Assembly (NCBI GenBank): GCA_037379345.1
Contig: CM074511.1
Span: forward strand, 15,562,001-15,626,000
Direction: 5' to 3'
Length of the DNA stretch: 64,000 nucleotides
Source: Perna viridis
Taxonomy: Eukaryota
Shown: piece after piece, positions 42,001 to 48,000 of the stretch
Layout of the letters: each line of letters starts with the position of its first letter
How positions within the stretch are numbered: position 1 is the first letter of the stretch
Position numbers: made by a program

Positions 42001-45000
42001 TCCATGAAGGTCGAAGCAACCATCCGGTGTCAAATACCCAAATGTGCCATCATGAAATAACAAGCCACTGATGAACACACCAAAAAAGGGAAACCAATTA
42101 ATACCTGGGAAGGGTTTAAAGGTCATTTACCAGTCTTTTCCTTACATCTTTGTTCACTTAAAGGTGTTGAATCTTAAATAATCTTATTTAAATAATAACC
42201 CAATAACTTCAAGGGTGACGACCCATTTCAAAGCATTATCCATTGGCCATTTTTCAATGTCACATTTCATAAAACGCAACTTAGTGAAGTGATTTCTGTA
42301 GAAGCATTATCCAAATGAATCTCTAAAATATTCATTGTATCTTGTCTCGCGATTCGTGGCCTTAGGCTTAAACTTGTTCGTGTGTTGTGATTTTTACCCC
42401 CGATAAGAGGACATATGACAACTTTGAGGACATACGAAAAAAAAATGTTCATAAAAGAGCACACAGGCAAAACTTCGATGACGCCATTGAAAAATAGATT
42501 TATATTTATATGAAATTCGACCTTCCATTTCGGCCGTAAATGAGTTATATTTGAAGGTTCTATTTCTTTTTTCTACAAGATCAGACAGGTAGTCTTCTTT
42601 TAAGTAAAAACCATAATTTCAATCTGATGACAATTATTAGAATGCTGTGTAACTTTTAGTTTATTTAGATAAATAAAGGCCTTTTTTCTTTCAGAATGAC
42701 CTCCGAAACAGTGGAGATGACTTGACTAATCAGATGTGGTTGATGTATGTAACGTTTGAGGATTTTATATATTTATCATACCCAGGGAAATCAGAAGCAA
42801 TACTGTCAACGCGTGTTGATATAAACAATTATTTCCAAAGAAGTACTATCTCGAAATCCCATAAATCTGTGAAACAAGCAAGTGATAACGCAGATAAAGC
42901 AACCGAAGAAACGTGTGAAGAAGATAAAAAGAGACTAAATCAGAGCGATGAACATCGAATTCGGAGCGAGTTAAAACACCAATACGGAGAGGTTATCTTC
43001 TCCCATCGGTTTGCAAGAAAACGTCGTCTCAATTCGCTGACTACGGACAATACAGCATTTGACGGAGAGACAATCGATGTGTATGGTGCTAGAAACAATT
43101 TAGACAACTTTGGATCGGATTGCATTGATATGCCTTATCGCGATAAGCAAAAGATGCACGATCGTAAAAAGAAAGATCACAGATCAAATGTGACAATAAC
43201 AAAGGATTATGGGTTTGGCAATTCATGGAGAATCCGTCAATCAGGAGATGTAATTAGGAATTGTCGTTTAAATGATCAATTAGTGAACCATAATGCCTCA
43301 GAGCAAAACCCGAGGACCAAAAACCTACCCGACAATACTGGATGTCAGCGTGATAATCCCCAATTTAAACTACAAAATAGGAGTTTAAACGGGCCAGCTG
43401 ATCATTGTGTGGGATTAAGTCCTCGTAATGCTTATCCTCGGGATGTAAGCTGTAATAACCATTTAAATTTGAGCTGTAGTGCTACTAATACACCACTTTC
43501 GTTGGATTTAACGAGGGAACTAAACTGGCATAATAACATATTAAACGTCTCTGCTTTCAATCCAGGTGATTCAAAAAGTGCAAGATTTCGTTTAAAATTG
43601 GATCTACAGAACAAAATATCACCTCAGAGTCCGCGGCGAGCTATTTCAAAAGAGGACGTTATCAGCTCGCATGATACCAGTGCAACCGAATTGCCAAGAT
43701 CTGTTTCGTTTGATAATGTGCTAACACCGGAACAAGAAATGCCATCTAAAGCTCTCTCATGTGAATCTTCTCCTGTGACTATCTCAAGTGGATACGAAAG
43801 TGATTCTTTGCCTACAAACGAGGCTGACATAGACAATATTTTTGTTCAAGGAAAAAAGCGAGAACAAAACAGAACAGTTCCTCCAATGGAATTACCAATT
43901 GACTACTTTTCTATGTCGGATAGTCACCCTTCACCCCACGGACAAAAACCTATATGTTCAATTGCAATGGTGACCCGTAAACCGGAGACATTTGTGCAAA
44001 ATGAATTGATAGAGCAATCAAATTCAAATCAACCAGTTTCAAAGGACACTAGACCGCCGATGCAGTCTCCAAGGGAGAATGTTGACAATCAAACACAAGC
44101 CCGGTTTTCACCGGCACAAATAAACAATTATCAACTGACAAAGGTCGCACGTTCGATGTTTGAGATTATACATGATTTGCAGACAGAGAAAGAGCAGGAA
44201 AACAAAGCAAAATCTCGAAAACCTAAGCGCCATGTTCAGTGGCGAAAAGATAGGACAGATGTCGTTAGAAAGCCGTTAAATAATAACAGTGAAAACGAAA
44301 ATTTTCTAAATTTAAGTGCAAGTCAACGGGAAAATTGTGAACAATTGCAACAAGCTATCAATCCCGCCCAATTGTCGGCGAATGGTAAAGTGTCCGTTAA
44401 ATGTTTGAGGCGACCTTTGGGGAGTGACCCAACGTTCCAAAACCGACAATTTCTACCTCATAGCTCCGAATTTGATAGACTGACATATCTGAAAGACAGT
44501 TATCCTGAAATAGGCGTTTTAACAAGTTCTGATAAATATCCAGAATTTTCGCGACAGTTCAGTGAACCAGAAATGAGACAAGAAATAAATTCAGACAACT
44601 TTCAAATGAACCATTCTTTCGACTCGAGAGCCACTCGACATCAAATTGTGTTCGATGGCTGTGCGCCTTATGCAACCACAAAGCTTCCCGGTTGTTCACC
44701 GTATGCAACAACTAGACTGCCCGGATGCCAGACTCCTCGTCGTGATGAAAGGGACGATCATGTGTATGAAACTATTCCGGGTGATGATTTATTGCAATAT
44801 GAAGAAATAATTCGAATGAGGTTAAATGGTTTACTCCCTCACACTGGCAAGTATTTTCCCCCGGCGTTGCCAGCTCGAAATGTGAATGATAGAAAAATGT
44901 CAGAGCCAGTGACAAAAGAATGGAATGCAAACTTTCGTATGCAACAAAACTTTATCCCTAATCTCAAAGTGGCACAATCTCATAAAACAAATGCCAAATC

Positions 45001-48000
45001 TACCTCATGTGATAATAGACAACCATTGAACAAACCCAGATCGTATTCATATGACCCTACTGATGCAGCTAAAAGTGTTCCGAATGAATTATTCTCTCGA
45101 TGGTCGGCTGCAGATTTGCTAAATTATATCGATGATATTCGACAACCTCCACCAAAACGGAGGGAAAACTTTTATCATCTATTAGACAGCAAACAGAAAA
45201 GGGCATGCTTTTCCGAGTCGTTGGAAATCGAAAATAAAATCAAAAATATGGGCATAGCTTTAGAAGAACGGGAACGCTTCCGCATATCCGAAGATGGATA
45301 TACAACTATGGACGGCGATTCACTGGATATGCCACCGCCATTTTGTGGTAGTTTACAAAATATGCAATCAACATACGTGTAAAATGTGCAATTGACAAAT
45401 GATATACGAGTTCAATGTTTAAGTTCGTAGATTTCCGTTTTATAGCGGACACGGGTGTATTAATGATTTGATCTCACGCAGACTATGTACGGACGATAAA
45501 TGTCCTACACTAATAGTGCTAAATGGCTGTGATGTTTTTGAATGTGTTTGTGATATTGTAAGTCAAGTTTGTGGGTGTTTAATTATTGTATTTGATATAC
45601 AATATTAAATAATGAGAAAATCATACAGTTGTTAGGTTTACATCAAATAATGCATAAAACAAGCGGTGAAGAGGTGTTCGTACATATACCAAGAATACCA
45701 AGTTCTGGGTTTGATTTAGTATTAGTAAGTACACGCATGCATGTTTGTTTAAAAACAACATAGCAATGAAAAGAAAAACAAATCATGCTTTTTGAGGTGT
45801 CTTGTATTAGTTTCTGTTCTTATCTTCTATATTTGTAAAAGTTCTTCCATCTTCCAACTGTTTGCCAAACAAAAATCAATCTCAATTGATACAAAATAAT
45901 AATAACTCTCTTTTGCTGTGAAAGAGGTCACCAAAAGGTCTTTCACAAGTGTAAGCACACCTTTTTAAAAAGCTCTGGAAGGCCCCAACAGCAAAAGTAC
46001 TAAAATCCACGGTAACAGAACGATGATGACATTTCTTCACAAATAACACTAATAAAATGCTTCGGAGCGCAGCTAGATACACCAACAGAAGCCGAATCCT
46101 GAACAGATGGGGCTAATGTGGACACGGTCAAATAACTTATATCTAAATACTTTCAGTAGACTTCTAAAAGATATGAACAGACGACTTGCAAAGTGCTTTC
46201 TATAAATTTCAGAAGTTTGATAAACAAAAAACAAAACCCTAGATCAAAAGAAAAACAATTCACAATGTCACTTCCTTTAGGTTTTTGAGTTAAAGTAAAA
46301 GAAAAAAAGGTTTCCCCATATTTGTATAAACTCAAAGATGCAAAAAAATATATAAAACAAAAGGAAGCTTACACTAATAGCAATCAACTATTCAATAAAG
46401 TTTAATCAAAATTGCATGAAGAATTCGCAAATATCCTATCTCTTTTTATATCAAATTCCTACGCAGGCAGGGAATTTTCATGAGGAATCCAAATCCTTTT
46501 TATTCAAAATCAGACCAGAAATATAAGTTTTTTAAAGGGGGTAGCACCACTTTGGCCACCAAAATACTAACAATGCCAGATGACATTTAAACTCTCTTAA
46601 ATATTCTTAAAACAGAATTGTATAAGAAACAAATTTTTAAAAAAAACGTCAAAATTAAATTTGAAGTAAACCTTCTACATCAATTTTAAATAAACACCTA
46701 TTTACCTTGGTTCCCATGATTACTCTTCTCTTTACCTCTTTTGACTCAATTTTCCAGTAGGGGCCAATGACCCCCATTTTAAATAGCAAGCTTTCTTTAA
46801 CACAAAGTAATAATATATCAAATTCCATGACATATGGTTTACTACAACTAAAGTTAAAGCCAAAAAAAAACAAACAAACAAACAAACAAAAAAAAAAACA
46901 ACGCCGACGACGACAACAACGACACCACAACATAATACGCAATTTTTTGCGGTCGTATAAAATCTGGTTGAGCAATATCATTTCTAATGAAAACCGACAA
47001 GTTATTTTATATATTTTTGTATCCAAGTTTTGTAACGGCGAAAAAAAAAATTGGTAAATGTTTGTCACGGCAATACTTCTGATGCAAAAGCGTTCTGAGA
47101 AAACAGTTAAGATGACCTAAATTTACGTTTTTCGAGGTTTTGTTACTGTAAAAAGTTTGTTTTTTTTTTCATGAAAAATACTTTTACACTGAGAGGGAAA
47201 AAGAGCGGTTCCGAAGAGTGCTCCCCGCTTAAAACCCATATAAAAATTATATTTATGTACACAGCGGAACACAATTCTCACAGAAAAAGTTGCAATGCAT
47301 ATCTAAACTTGTCCCGATATAGACTGCCTTCGAATATATGTTGAAAATAGTTTGTAGGTTGAGCTATATCAACTTGAAAAAAAAAACCTTTCCATCAAAC
47401 ATGTATACACACAACACTGGTCGTTCGAACTACAGTTAAAGAATATAAATAATGGACAATCCTCTTAGGCCAATTATTTCGTACCCTTCCCTCTAAATGA
47501 AAGGAGCCGCTGCAGTGTAGCTCTTGGGCACATGTTTAAATATACCGTATAAACAGTCCTTTTCTAACGGTGCAGCTCGATGCATTTCACACGAGGCATT
47601 ATTTATAGCTGCGTAAAAGTCAGAAAGATTAGTATTACGATTTATTTTCAATGGATAAACGCAGATTTGATTAAGTTTTAATACATACAACACCAACAAA
47701 CTTCTCGCGAAAGGTTAAGTTTCGGTTAACAAAATGACCTATTAAAAATGCTTACAAAAACACAGTCTTCTTTCAAAACGGTTTACATATGCACATATTG
47801 ATAAACAAATTTTAACATGCAAATTATTTTTACTATACAAAATAAAAAGACGGGAAGGTTCGTAAGATAAGAAAGAATTTCTTAACATTTTACTATCATG
47901 CAGTAAAGGGCATCTGTAATACTATTGATTTTTGTGAATGAAGCTCAAGTAAGCAAGGTAGTAACCGCGGAGTAAACATAAACAGAAATCTTGATGAATT

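What the first reader, a model, noticed from the sequence alone, without database searches (positions are those of the whole stretch)
44657..45382. A receptor tail without a receptor: Robo-CC1-like tandem PYATT motifs and an SH2/SH3/PDZ cassette in a disordered protein
Seen: GCAPYATTKLP-GCSPYATTRLP tandem with divergent synonymous codons, then HVYETIP, QYEEII, PPALPARN, ENFYHLL, DGYTTM and terminal STYV. No signal peptide, transmembrane helix or recognisable folded domain in ~890 aa. Known: TPYATT is the Robo CC1 tyrosine motif; pYEEI binds Src SH2; YxxM binds PI3K p85; PxxPxR is a class II SH3 ligand; T-x-V-COOH is a class I PDZ ligand. Inference: an undescribed soluble docking protein or decoy mimicking guidance-receptor tails. 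With gene 1 upstream on the same strand there is limited room for a large ectodomain, and none was seen.
Basis: partly seen in the sequence, partly recalled or inferred. Interest (0 to 1): 0.7.

Follow-up and report, generated by a model that had tools for sequence, protein, structure and literature searches.

The report
Disordered motif-rich scaffold protein of mussels
The motifs are real and form the tail end of a soluble, mostly unstructured protein found in molluscs, an annelid and a ribbon worm, which probably acts as a signalling scaffold and is neither a receptor fragment nor a copy of a guidance-receptor tail.

Summary
They lie at the C-terminal end of one 2.7-kb coding exon (42695-45382, +).

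Gene and protein:
- A probable 12-codon first exon sits at 30492-30527.
- The protein has no Pfam domain and no membrane-spanning segment.
- AlphaFold2 gives 683 of 895 residues a pLDDT below 50.

Family: homologues are all "uncharacterized". The named ones are 18 mollusc species, the annelid Owenia and the nemertean Lineus. None carries an ectodomain.

Conservation separates the motifs:
- Conserved across the family: [DE]H[VI]YETIPGD, PPxLPxR and the xTYV C-terminus.
- Lineage-specific: PYATT occurs only in mussels, scallops and oysters, and the tandem only in mussels. The YEEI +3 residue and DGYTTM are also restricted.

Verdict: this is an undescribed lophotrochozoan family of motif-based scaffold proteins. 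"Soluble docking protein" is supported. "Decoy of a Robo tail" is not. All binding functions are inferred.

The parts
30492..30527 (+). Candidate first coding exon, MDGLILKLKCEM, followed by the donor GTAAGT at 30528.
   Evidence: It is the best of 441 ATG...GT candidates between 21400 and 42690 when scored against the N-termini of Haliotis rubra isoform X1 (P0045) and Owenia (P0041). Of 17 candidates with a GTRAGT donor among 1983 on both strands of the window, it is the only one scoring 20 or more. An in-frame TGA lies at 30483-30485, with G at -3 and G at +4. Against it: the transcript-derived N-termini of two mussels and one oyster (P0002, P0004, P0013) show other short extensions.
30528..42694 (+). 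Intron of 12,167 nt, GTAAGT ... ttttttctttcag.
   Evidence: The donor is seen and the acceptor with its polypyrimidine tract. A 33-nt tandem array lies inside it at 32169-32486.
42695..45382 (+). Main coding exon: 895 codons plus a stop. It also holds an internal ATG at 42734 (MWLMYVTFEDF), where most database models of relatives begin.
   Evidence: Open frame. It is 67-81% identical to mussel homologues and 23-36% identical to scallop, oyster and limpet homologues.
42695..42847 (+). N-terminal helical module (residues 1-51 of the exon-2 translation). It contains the near-invariant WLLYVTFED block. YVTFED at 42746-42763 fits the WIRS pattern.
   Evidence: AlphaFold2 predicts helices 2-28, 33-37 and 43-51, with pLDDT block means of 68-87 over residues 1-50. 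The module is 39% identical over 51 residues to the annelid protein, E 2e-10. The WIRS pattern is checked.
43766..43807 (+). SSPVTISSGYESDS, one of the best conserved blocks. SSGYES fits the beta-TrCP phosphodegron pattern [D/S]-S-G-x-x-S.
   Evidence: S364, S365, G366, Y367 and S369 are invariant in 28 of 28 aligned sequences. SSGY.S is present in 55 of 60 family proteins of 600 aa or more. PER2 degron 2 is SSGYGS and is described as resembling the beta-TrCP motif (PMC11223080, passages).
44111..44209 (+). Central conserved helix (QLTKVARSMFEIIHDLQ at 44132-44182), followed by a basic cluster.
   Evidence: AlphaFold2 predicts helix 473-505, with pLDDT block means of 68-89. Block identity is 0.80.
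44402..44422 (+). CLRRPLG block, conserved in bivalves.
44657..44722 (+). Tandem GCAPYATTKLP / GCSPYATTRLP, a mussel-specific duplication of a motif found only in mussels, scallops and oysters.
   Evidence: PYA[TS][TA] is in 12 of 60 family proteins and the tandem in 4 of 60.
44756..44785 (+). DHVYETIPGD, a family-wide tyrosine motif.
   Evidence: Y691, I694 and D697 are invariant in 28 of 28; H689, E692 and P695 are conserved in 90% or more. The motif is present in 52 of 60. It also occurs in the annelid and the nemertean.
44795..44812 (+). QYEEII, at the start of a short helix.
   Evidence: Y-E-E is kept in bivalves but the +3 residue varies (I/L/H/M/W). It is absent from most gastropods. 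YEE[ILVM] is in 10 of 60. Helix 697-710 is predicted.
44858..44881 (+). PPALPARN, a PxLPxR proline motif of the class II SH3-ligand pattern.
   Evidence: P723, L725, P726 and R728 are invariant in 28 of 28. [PA]P.LP.R is in 60 of 60.
45107..45247 (+). C-terminal pair of helices, including QPPPKRRENFYHLL and FSESLEIENKIK.
   Evidence: AlphaFold2 predicts helices 805-814 and 833-851, with pLDDT about 80 for the second. KRREN is in 23 of 60 and S[ED]SLE[IVL]E in 25 of 60.
45293..45310 (+). DGYTTM.
   Evidence: Found only in mussels and scallops: 8 of 28 aligned and 8 of 60.
45368..45382 (+). C-terminal S-T-Y-V plus the stop codon, a PDZ-ligand pattern.
   Evidence: The last three residues are TYV in 46 of 60; YV in 50 of 60; [ST]Y[VC] in 52 of 60. 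STYV is the PDZ-binding end of Kalirin-7 (bioRxiv 10.1101/744508, passage). C-terminal YV ends of claudins and 5-HT2B are discussed as PDZ-recognition ends and as proposed or reported LNX1/2 targets (PMC7765395, passage).

Best explanation
The finding is the C-terminal motif cluster of a two-exon gene. The candidate 12-codon exon is at 30492-30527 and the main exon at 42695-45382. The gene encodes a cytoplasmic, intrinsically disordered protein of about 900 residues. It belongs to an uncharacterised family seen in molluscs, an annelid and a nemertean.

The most likely way it works is as a scaffold or adaptor built from short linear motifs. Every step below is inferred from motif patterns:
1. 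The invariant x-T-Y-V C-terminus anchors it to a PDZ-domain protein at a membrane or junctional site.
2. The invariant [DE]H[VI]YETIPGD tyrosine and the PPxLPxR proline motif, about 30-45 residues apart, dock the SH2 and SH3 domains of a non-receptor tyrosine kinase or adaptor of the Src/Abl/Crk type.
3. The invariant SSGYxS block acts as a phosphorylation-dependent beta-TrCP-type degron that limits the protein's lifetime.
4. The conserved N-terminal helical module and two further helices bind partners still unknown.

The tandem PYATT, the YEE[IL] and the DGYTTM tyrosines are later additions in mussels, scallops and oysters. They may add further kinase or SH2 inputs.

Shown: the gene structure of the main exon, the disorder, the absence of membrane or known domains, family membership and the conservation pattern.
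Inferred: every binding function.
For: - Single long open frame with all the motifs.
- No Pfam family in the window protein, in 14 relatives at E<=1, in 28 at E<=10, or in the 17 longest hits not already in the first alignment.
- AlphaFold2 with a 28-sequence alignment: mean pLDDT 46.4, with 683 of 895 residues below 50. The confident parts are short helices only.
- No membrane-like segment in 72 of 74 stored proteins. The two exceptions are one Elysia protein in two versions, with a Gly/Ser/Val-rich stretch.
- Family: 13 hits; 34 hits at E<=1e-3 in 1.84 billion representatives; 40 hits with the wider profile.
- All names returned are molluscs, plus Owenia fusiformis (Annelida) and Lineus longissimus (Nemertea). 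The blocks are collinear in the pairwise alignments.
- Invariant positions in 28 of 28: S364, S365, G366, Y367, S369, S487, Y691, I694, D697, P723, L725, P726, R728.
- Family counts among 60 proteins of 600 aa or more: YV end 50, SSGY.S 55, HVYETIP-like 52, [PA]P.LP.R 60.
- Motif precedents seen in papers: Kalirin-7 STYV as a PDZ motif; claudin and 5-HT2B YV ends; PER2 SSGYGS as a beta-TrCP-like degron.
- The assignments of pYE.I to Src-type SH2 domains and PxLPxR to class II SH3 ligands are recalled textbook knowledge and come from no call.
Against: - No binding, phosphorylation, localisation or expression data exist for any family member. All functions rest on patterns of 3-7 residues, which are individually weak.
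- Nine of 60 long family proteins end otherwise than in [ST/I]YV. Five of these end in Cys (TYC, TFC, TLC). The nemertean ends in III and the Haliotis rubra models end in WTP.
- YETI has P at +4, so it is not a pYxxP (Crk/Abl/Nck) site. His at -2 does not fit an ITIM.
- Several basic clusters (for example KAKSRKPKRHVQWRK) would equally fit a nuclear protein.
- The counts are not phylogenetically independent, and they include several proteins per species.
- The first exon is a prediction. Three transcript-derived N-termini from other mussels and an oyster do not show it.
Confidence: 0.6

Rival explanations
1. One reading: a soluble decoy or mimic of a Robo-type guidance-receptor tail. Its PYATT tyrosines would compete for the Abl kinase or other factors that act on Robo CC0/CC1.
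For: - The exact pentapeptide PYATT occurs twice, against 0 of 5000 shuffles.
- The two copies keep 9 of 11 residues despite 9 of 33 base differences.
- One copy is kept in scallops and oysters.
- Robo CC0/CC1 tyrosines are Abl targets, and CC0 keeps a YAx-hydrophobic pattern (PMC8045725 and PMC12308364, passages).
- The near-invariant N-terminal YVTFED fits the WIRS pattern that Robo1 carries between CC0 and CC1 (PMC8096436, passages).
- That CC1 reads P-t-P-Y-A-T-T is recalled and comes from no call.
Against: - PYAT[TA] is absent from 48 of 60 long family members, including all gastropods, the unionid and heterodont bivalves, the annelid and the nemertean. It cannot be the family's core function.
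- No [LF]PPPP (CC2-type) motif is present.
- The WIRS-like match is no more frequent than chance (1 observed, 1.26 expected). It lies in a predicted helix 640 residues from PYATT.
- No sequence similarity to any receptor was found.
Confidence: 0.08
2. It is a true receptor tail after all. Exons for a membrane helix and an ectodomain lie upstream and were missed.
For: - A good splice acceptor precedes the frame at 42694/42695.
- 13 further codons upstream of the internal ATG are conserved at the peptide level in a gastropod, an annelid and an oyster. The exon therefore does not start the protein.
Against: - The extensions seen in relatives are only 11-26 residues in 6 of 7 cases. The seventh (P0034, 43 residues) reads through the polypyrimidine tract.
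- Two of these extensions start with Met at the same register as the candidate exon 1 of the window.
- An in-frame stop lies 9 bases before that ATG.
- No family member has a Pfam domain.
- 72 of 74 stored proteins lack a membrane-like stretch.
- No longer fused form was found.
Confidence: 0.03
3. It is the protostome counterpart of Dact/Dapper-type Wnt/planar-polarity scaffolds, either a functional analogue or an orthologue diverged beyond recognition. An N-terminal helical dimerisation module, a serine-rich phospho-regulated centre and a C-terminal T-x-V end would bind the Dishevelled PDZ domain.
For: The architecture is the same as described for Dact in PMC4236578 (passages):
- a small 5' exon followed by one large last exon;
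- an N-terminal helix (leucine zipper in Dact);
- serine-rich and basic NLS-like stretches;
- a C-terminal PDZ-binding end (K-L/V-MTTV in Dact);
- a mostly disordered protein of similar size.

That paper found no Dact in lophotrochozoans, so the niche is open. A beta-TrCP-type degron would suit a Wnt-pathway component (inference).
Against: - The Pfam Dapper model was not among the families returned for 28 of 28 members at E<=10 or for the window protein.
- The end is TYV, not MTTV.
- The tyrosine and proline motifs that are invariant here are not described for Dact in the passages read.
- The resemblance is one of architecture only.
- The paper's additional files with the motif alignments could not be seen because supplements are closed.
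Confidence: 0.1

Closest known systems
Uncharacterised mollusc proteins such as LOC127711147 (Mytilus californianus), LOC117330489 (Pecten maximus), LOC134246310 (Saccostrea cucullata) and LOC124258633 (Haliotis rubra); also CAH1783505 (Owenia fusiformis) and LOC135490932 (Lineus longissimus)
   Same: These are true homologues. The conserved blocks are collinear: the N-terminal WLLYVTFED, SSGYxS, the central helix, HVYETIPGD, PPxLPxR and the TYV end.
   Different: None has a described function, name or Pfam family. The window protein is 71% identical to the named Mytilus proteins and 81% identical to an unnamed mussel transcript product, so it comes from another mytilid.
Dact/Dapper/Frodo scaffolds of chordates
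   Same: The architecture and presumed logic match: a mostly disordered adaptor, an N-terminal helical module, a serine-rich regulated centre, a C-terminal PDZ-binding T-x-V end, and small 5' exon(s) plus one large last exon (PMC4236578 passages).
   Different: No detectable sequence relation. The end is TYV, not MTTV. The tyrosine/SH3-type motifs are invariant here. Dact is reported as chordate-specific.
Robo receptor cytoplasmic motifs CC0/CC1 and WIRS
   Same: A PYATT tyrosine motif occurs twice, and there is one WIRS-pattern match (papers).
   Different: There is no ectodomain, membrane helix or CC2-type motif. PYATT is limited to mussels, scallops and oysters. The WIRS-like site lies in a predicted helix far from PYATT.
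Kalirin-7 C-terminus (STYV), and YV ends of claudins and 5-HT2B
   Same: The last four residues are identical to Kalirin-7, where STYV is the PDZ-binding motif. A YV end is also found in claudins.
   Different: These proteins are otherwise unrelated. Only the terminal peptide is shared.
PER2 degron 2 (SSGYGS), a beta-TrCP phosphodegron
   Same: The pattern S-S-G-Y-x-S is the same. The annelid homologue has exactly SSGYGS.
   Different: There is no other similarity to PERIOD proteins. Phosphorylation and beta-TrCP binding are untested.
Docking proteins of tyrosine-kinase signalling (Gab, Dok, IRS, p130Cas, NYAP; recalled)
   Same: Long disordered chains that carry tyrosine and proline motifs for SH2 and SH3 domains.
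   Different: Those proteins use a PH, PTB or SH3 domain for targeting. Here no folded domain was found, and targeting would be by the PDZ ligand and the N-terminal helices.

Membership tests
Robo receptors | Ig and fibronectin-III ectodomain plus a membrane helix | tested here: not met
   No Pfam family. The best hydrophobic window is 0.39-0.52. The upstream exon encodes only 12 residues.
Robo receptors | CC0/CC1 tyrosine motif (PYATT-type; consensus recalled) | tested here: met
   PYATT occurs at 44666-44680 and 44699-44713. It is present in only 12 of 60 family proteins.
Robo receptors | CC2 proline motif (LPPPP-type; recalled) | tested here: not met
   No PPPP or [LF]PPPP in the protein.
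Dact/Dapper | Match to the Pfam Dapper model | tested here: not met
   Dapper is not among the families returned at E<=10 for any of 28 members or for the window protein.
Dact/Dapper | C-terminal K-L/V-MTTV PDZ-binding end (PMC4236578) | tested here: not met
   The end is (M/L)QSTYV.
Dact/Dapper | N-terminal leucine zipper that dimerises | tested here: inconclusive
   An N-terminal helix is predicted, but no heptad leucine pattern was established.
Class I PDZ ligands ([S/T]-x-hydrophobic at the C-terminus; recalled rule) | Pattern at the last three residues | tested here: met
   T-Y-V in the window. TYV in 46 of 60 and [ST]Y[VC] in 52 of 60.
Class I PDZ ligands | Binding to a PDZ domain | not testable with these tools
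   No partner is known. There is only the precedent of Kalirin-7 STYV.
beta-TrCP phosphodegrons (D/S-pS-G-x-x-pS) | Sequence pattern | tested here: met
   SSGYES at 43784-43801. S, S, G, Y and S are invariant in 28 of 28. The pattern is in 55 of 60. The pattern itself is described in PMC11223080.
beta-TrCP phosphodegrons | Phosphorylation-dependent binding and turnover | not testable with these tools
   Needs experiment.
Uncharacterised lophotrochozoan family (LOC127711147-like) | Collinear conserved blocks along the full length, with significant profile scores | tested here: met
   E values from 2e-134 to 4e-13. Profile hits. Alignments A1 and A2.

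The most novel reading that the evidence does not exclude
A lophotrochozoan-specific signalling hub. It would be a PDZ-anchored, degron-timed scaffold that recruits a Src/Abl-type kinase through a bipartite SH2/SH3 site and the WAVE complex through its invariant N-terminal YVTFED. It would fill in protostomes the role that Dact-type scaffolds play in chordates. In mussels, scallops and oysters it would have acquired Robo CC0/CC1-like Abl target sites, and so would feed into guidance or polarity signalling.
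Probability: 0.1. Interest if true: 0.6.

Novelty: new variant of a known kind. Interest (0 to 1): 0.4.

Why it matters
Proteins made only of short linear motifs are hard to annotate, and this family is a clean example. Its order of blocks has been kept across at least three phyla. Its few invariant residues are exactly those of recognisable docking motifs, while everything between them drifts.

It offers a testable case of how such scaffolds gain new motifs: the PYATT duplication in mussels, and DGYTTM in mussels and scallops.

It also gives mollusc, annelid and nemertean genome annotators a name and a model for a gene now labelled "uncharacterized". If the PDZ, kinase and degron readings hold, it would be a new component of cell-junction or polarity signalling in a large, poorly studied part of the animal tree.

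Tried and rejected
- **Pfam.** Scans of the window protein and of 14, 17 and 28 relatives found nothing consistent. bMERB, Adeno_L433K and RcpB each matched 1-3 members weakly, below their cut-offs.
- **Solved structures.** A profile search against PDB sequences gave one hit at E 9.9, which is chance.
- **ESM Atlas.** The whole protein matched only generic disordered proteins (exophilin-5-like, score 0.85 or less). The N-terminal 56 residues scored 0.76 to UNC119_bdg clusters. Both are below the level of a lead.
- **Fused forms.** A search for longer fused forms (1578-4505 aa) examined 257 candidates and none was significant.
- **Self-association.** I tested self-association of the N-terminal 56 residues with complex prediction. 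After repeated queue-full answers the job ran and gave 'no answer' (score 0.00). It counts neither for nor against.
- **LIR motif.** I considered an LC3-interacting motif in TFEDFICL. I rejected it because the aromatic position is L or V in oysters and Haliotis.
- **ITIM and pYxxP.** I considered both readings of HVYETIP and rejected them from the sequence (His at -2, Pro at +4).
- **'MKW' peptide.** A peptide at 26212, resembling the start of P0002, lacks a donor at the matching place.
- **Strict exon-1 search.** A first search (ATG, up to 15 codons, AG|GTRAG) found 0 candidates because the real candidate ends in ATG|GTAAGT.
- **Literature.** Searches for PYATT were swamped by a surname. None of YETIPGD, LYVTFED, SSGYESD, SESLEIE or IYETIP occurs in the 15 listed of 31 hits, which all matched 'ppalpar' inside unrelated words.
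- **RNA genes.** Rfam and tRNA scans of the window found none.

Full report
**What is there**

The window is AT-rich, about 32% G+C, contains no N and looks like an animal genome. The finding lies in a single open frame, 42677..45382 on the + strand. At 901 codons it is by far the longest in the window.

- the tandem GCAPYATTKLP/GCSPYATTRLP at 44657-44722
- HVYETIP at 44759-44779
- QYEEII at 44795-44812
- PPALPARN at 44858-44881
- ENFYHLL at 45164-45184
- DGYTTM at 45293-45310
- STYV at 45368-45379, followed by the stop

The two repeat units share 24 of 33 bases and 9 of 11 residues. Five of the nine differences are silent changes at identical residues. The duplication is therefore old and kept at the protein level.

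Shuffling the protein 5000 times shows that most single patterns are only mildly unusual:
- Y..M and P..P.[RK] occur 2 times each, against 0.54 expected.
- A class I PDZ-type end appears in 2.2% of shuffles.
- PYATT twice is never reached.

**Gene structure**

A perfect acceptor (ttttttctttcag) ends at 42694. The 13 codons between it and the internal ATG at 42734 (NDLRNSGDDLTNQ) are conserved at the peptide level in Haliotis rubra isoform X1, in the annelid Owenia, in an oyster and in other mussels. The exon therefore starts at 42695 and is preceded by a short coding exon.

I scanned 21400-42690 for ATG-to-GT segments and scored them against the Haliotis and Owenia N-termini. The best of 441 candidates is 30492-30527, MDGLILKLKCEM, followed by GTAAGT. 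Among 17 candidates with a GTRAGT donor, out of 1983 on both strands of the whole window, it is the only one scoring 20 or more. An in-frame TGA lies 9 bases upstream, with G at -3 and G at +4. The candidate gives the same 25-residue register before MWL(M/L)YV as Haliotis X1.

Against it, three transcript-derived N-termini (two mussels, one oyster) show other short extensions, and one more reads through the unspliced tract. I treat exon 1 as probable, not proven.

All searches used the exon-2 translation or the whole open frame.

Whatever the first exon is, six of the seven extensions seen in relatives are 11 to 26 residues long and none is hydrophobic. The seventh, the unspliced read-through, is 43 residues.

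**What the protein is like**

- There is no Pfam family in the window protein at E up to 10. There is none in 14 relatives at E up to 1, none in 28 relatives at E up to 10, and none at E up to 0.001 in the 17 longest profile hits not already in the first alignment.
- The best 19-residue hydrophobic window is 0.39-0.52, far from a membrane helix. Of 74 stored proteins, only one Elysia protein, in two versions, passes 1.6, with a Gly/Ser/Val-rich stretch.
- AlphaFold2 with a 28-sequence alignment gives mean pLDDT 46.4, with 683 of 895 residues below 50.
- The confident parts are helices only: residues 2-28, 33-37 and 43-51 (10-residue pLDDT means 68-87), 473-505 (68-89), 697-710, 805-814 and 833-851 (about 80).
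- The PDB profile search and both ESM Atlas searches gave nothing usable.

**Relatives**

The C-terminal 262 residues find 13 proteins of 760-1153 aa. These are Mytilus (73-79% identity over this part), four scallops, oysters and the limpet Patella. All are 'uncharacterized'.

A profile of these was run against 1.84 billion cluster representatives, read exhaustively. It finds only 34 proteins at E up to 0.001.

Names could be looked up for 20 of them, and 11 clusters carry a name:
- Sinanodonta, Gigantopelta, Haliotis, Bradybaena, Biomphalaria and Elysia
- Mactra and Lottia
- Owenia fusiformis (Annelida) and Lineus longissimus (Nemertea)

The remaining nine clusters come from unnamed ENA or Logan records, which I did not trace. 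A wider profile through the word index gives 40 proteins, and all the named ones are molluscs.

Pairwise alignments with the annelid and the nemertean show the blocks in the same order. The blocks are the N-terminal module (39% over 51 residues, E 2e-10), the SSGY block, the central helix, and HIYETIPGD followed by PPxLPARN.

A search among proteins of 1578-4505 aa found no fused form (weak evidence). As far as can be seen, the family is lophotrochozoan. It has no receptor-like member and no name.

**Which motifs are constrained**

In the 28-sequence alignment the invariant positions are S364, S365, G366, Y367, S369 (SSGYxS), S487 (central helix), Y691, I694, D697 (HVYETIPGD), and P723, L725, P726, R728 (PPxLPxR). 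Mean identity to the window protein is 0.26 overall, against 0.80-0.88 in these blocks.

Counts among 60 family proteins of 600 aa or more (not independent, several per species) are as follows:

| Motif | Proteins with it (of 60) |
|---|---|
| C-terminal TYV | 46 |
| C-terminal YV | 50 |
| C-terminal [ST]Y[VC] | 52 |
| SSGY.S | 55 |
| HVYETIP-like | 52 |
| [PA]P.LP.R | 60 |
| PYA[TS][TA] | 12 (mussels, scallops, oysters) |
| Tandem PYAT | 4 (mussels) |
| YEE[ILVM] | 10 |
| DGYTT[MV] | 8 |
| KRREN | 23 |

- A deep core: the YETIP tyrosine, the proline motif and the TYV end.
- Lineage-specific additions: PYATT, the +3 residue of YEEI, DGYTTM, and partly ENFYxLL.

**How it most likely works (inference)**

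*PDZ anchor.* The last four residues are identical to the PDZ-binding end of Kalirin-7. There, changing STYV to STYD is used to destroy the motif (bioRxiv 10.1101/744508, one passage read). C-terminal YV ends of claudins and 5-HT2B are discussed as PDZ-recognition ends and as proposed or reported LNX1/2 targets (PMC7765395, one passage). A PDZ anchor is the best-supported single function.

*Kinase or adaptor docking.* [DE]H[VI]YETI fits the recalled pY-E-x-I preference of Src/Fes-type SH2 domains. PxLPxR fits the recalled class II SH3 pattern. The two are 30-45 residues apart throughout the family. This is the arrangement of bipartite SH3/SH2 docking sites in kinase substrates such as p130Cas (recalled).

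*Degron.* SSGYxS matches PER2 degron 2, SSGYGS. That degron is described as resembling the canonical beta-TrCP motif (PMC11223080, passages). The annelid protein has exactly SSGYGS. This suggests phosphorylation-timed degradation.

*N-terminal module.* It is hydrophobic and helical in the model. Its YVTFED fits the WIRS pattern (bulky hydrophobic, x, T/S, F) that recruits the WAVE complex to Robo1 (PMC8096436, passages). However, one such match is what chance gives (1.26 expected), and it lies in a predicted helix. This is only a lead.

**Comparison with known systems**

*Robo.* Robo tails share the PYATT-type tyrosine motif, which is an Abl target (PMC8045725 and PMC12308364, passages). The exact CC1 consensus is recalled. 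The protein fails the defining features of Robo: it has no ectodomain, no membrane helix and no CC2-type motif. The motif is also not ancestral in the family.

*Dact/Dapper.* These scaffolds have the same architecture and gene layout: an N-terminal zipper, a serine-rich centre, a C-terminal PDZ-binding MTTV, a large last exon, and no lophotrochozoan member found (PMC4236578, passages). The Pfam Dapper model is not among the families returned for any of 28 members, and the terminal motif differs. This is a likeness of design, not membership. The additional files of that paper, with the motif alignments, could not be seen.

*Classical docking proteins.* Gab, Dok, IRS and Cas (recalled) share the logic but have folded targeting domains, which are absent here.

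**Verdict**

The gene is an intact, conserved member of an unnamed lophotrochozoan family of motif-based scaffolds. It is a new family within a known kind of protein. Every binding partner remains to be shown.

Noticed in passing
window 10054-12030, 12852-13205, 19756-20424, 20778-21371 (+): The upstream gene on the same strand ('gene 1') has open frames packed with (K/R)(G/P)RPPGAKNKPK repeats. These look like AT-hook motifs (RGRP core; recalled). The pattern scan gave 14 matches in the first frame, 8 of them full GRPxG[AS]KNK units and 6 bare PGRP. It gave 2 matches in each of the next two frames and 0 in the fourth. No Pfam hit at E<=0.01. A 54-nt tandem repeat of about 5 copies overlaps its 5' end at 9939-10226.
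   Followed up: partly
window 42746-42763 (+): YVTFED, in the near-invariant N-terminal block, fits the WIRS (WAVE-complex binding) pattern. T-F is kept in 21 of 22 family proteins that have the block. One match is no more than chance in this protein (1.26 expected), and it lies in a predicted helix.
   Followed up: partly
window 45287-45310 (+), and relatives P0003, P0006-P0009: In Mytilus and scallops the DGYTTM tyrosine is preceded by D-E, giving DEDGYTT[MV]. This recalls the hemITAM pattern DEDGYxxL of C-type lectin receptors (recalled, no call). The window itself has SEDGYTTM.
   Followed up: no
window 32169-32486, 56419-56706, 60119-61208, 61570-61855: Four tandem-repeat arrays. One has a 33-nt unit in 9.7 copies and lies inside the intron of the gene. 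One has a 66-nt unit in 4.3 copies. One has a 34-nt unit in about 32 copies. One is a degenerate array with a 20/33-nt unit.
   Followed up: no
window 53554-53856 and 53891-54205 (+): Two adjacent open frames of 100 and 104 codons have no Pfam match. The first (…ISQLIRYARACRNYADFL…LQKFYGRHHELVDCYG…) recalls a multi-copy open frame common in bivalve genomes (recalled, not checked).
   Followed up: no
relatives P0033/P0047 (Biomphalaria, 1558-1580 aa) and P0037/P0051 (Elysia, 2789-2810 aa): Heterobranch gastropod members are two to three times longer. They match only by the C-terminal blocks and end in SSTYV. None has a Pfam family. One Biomphalaria record is labelled 'lateral signaling target protein 2', and nothing here supports that label.
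   Followed up: partly
relatives P0036, P0038, P0041, P0043, P0074: A subgroup that includes the annelid ends in Cys (TYC, TFC, TLC) instead of Val. The nemertean ends in III, and the Haliotis rubra models end in VWTP, which may be a mis-predicted last exon.
   Followed up: no
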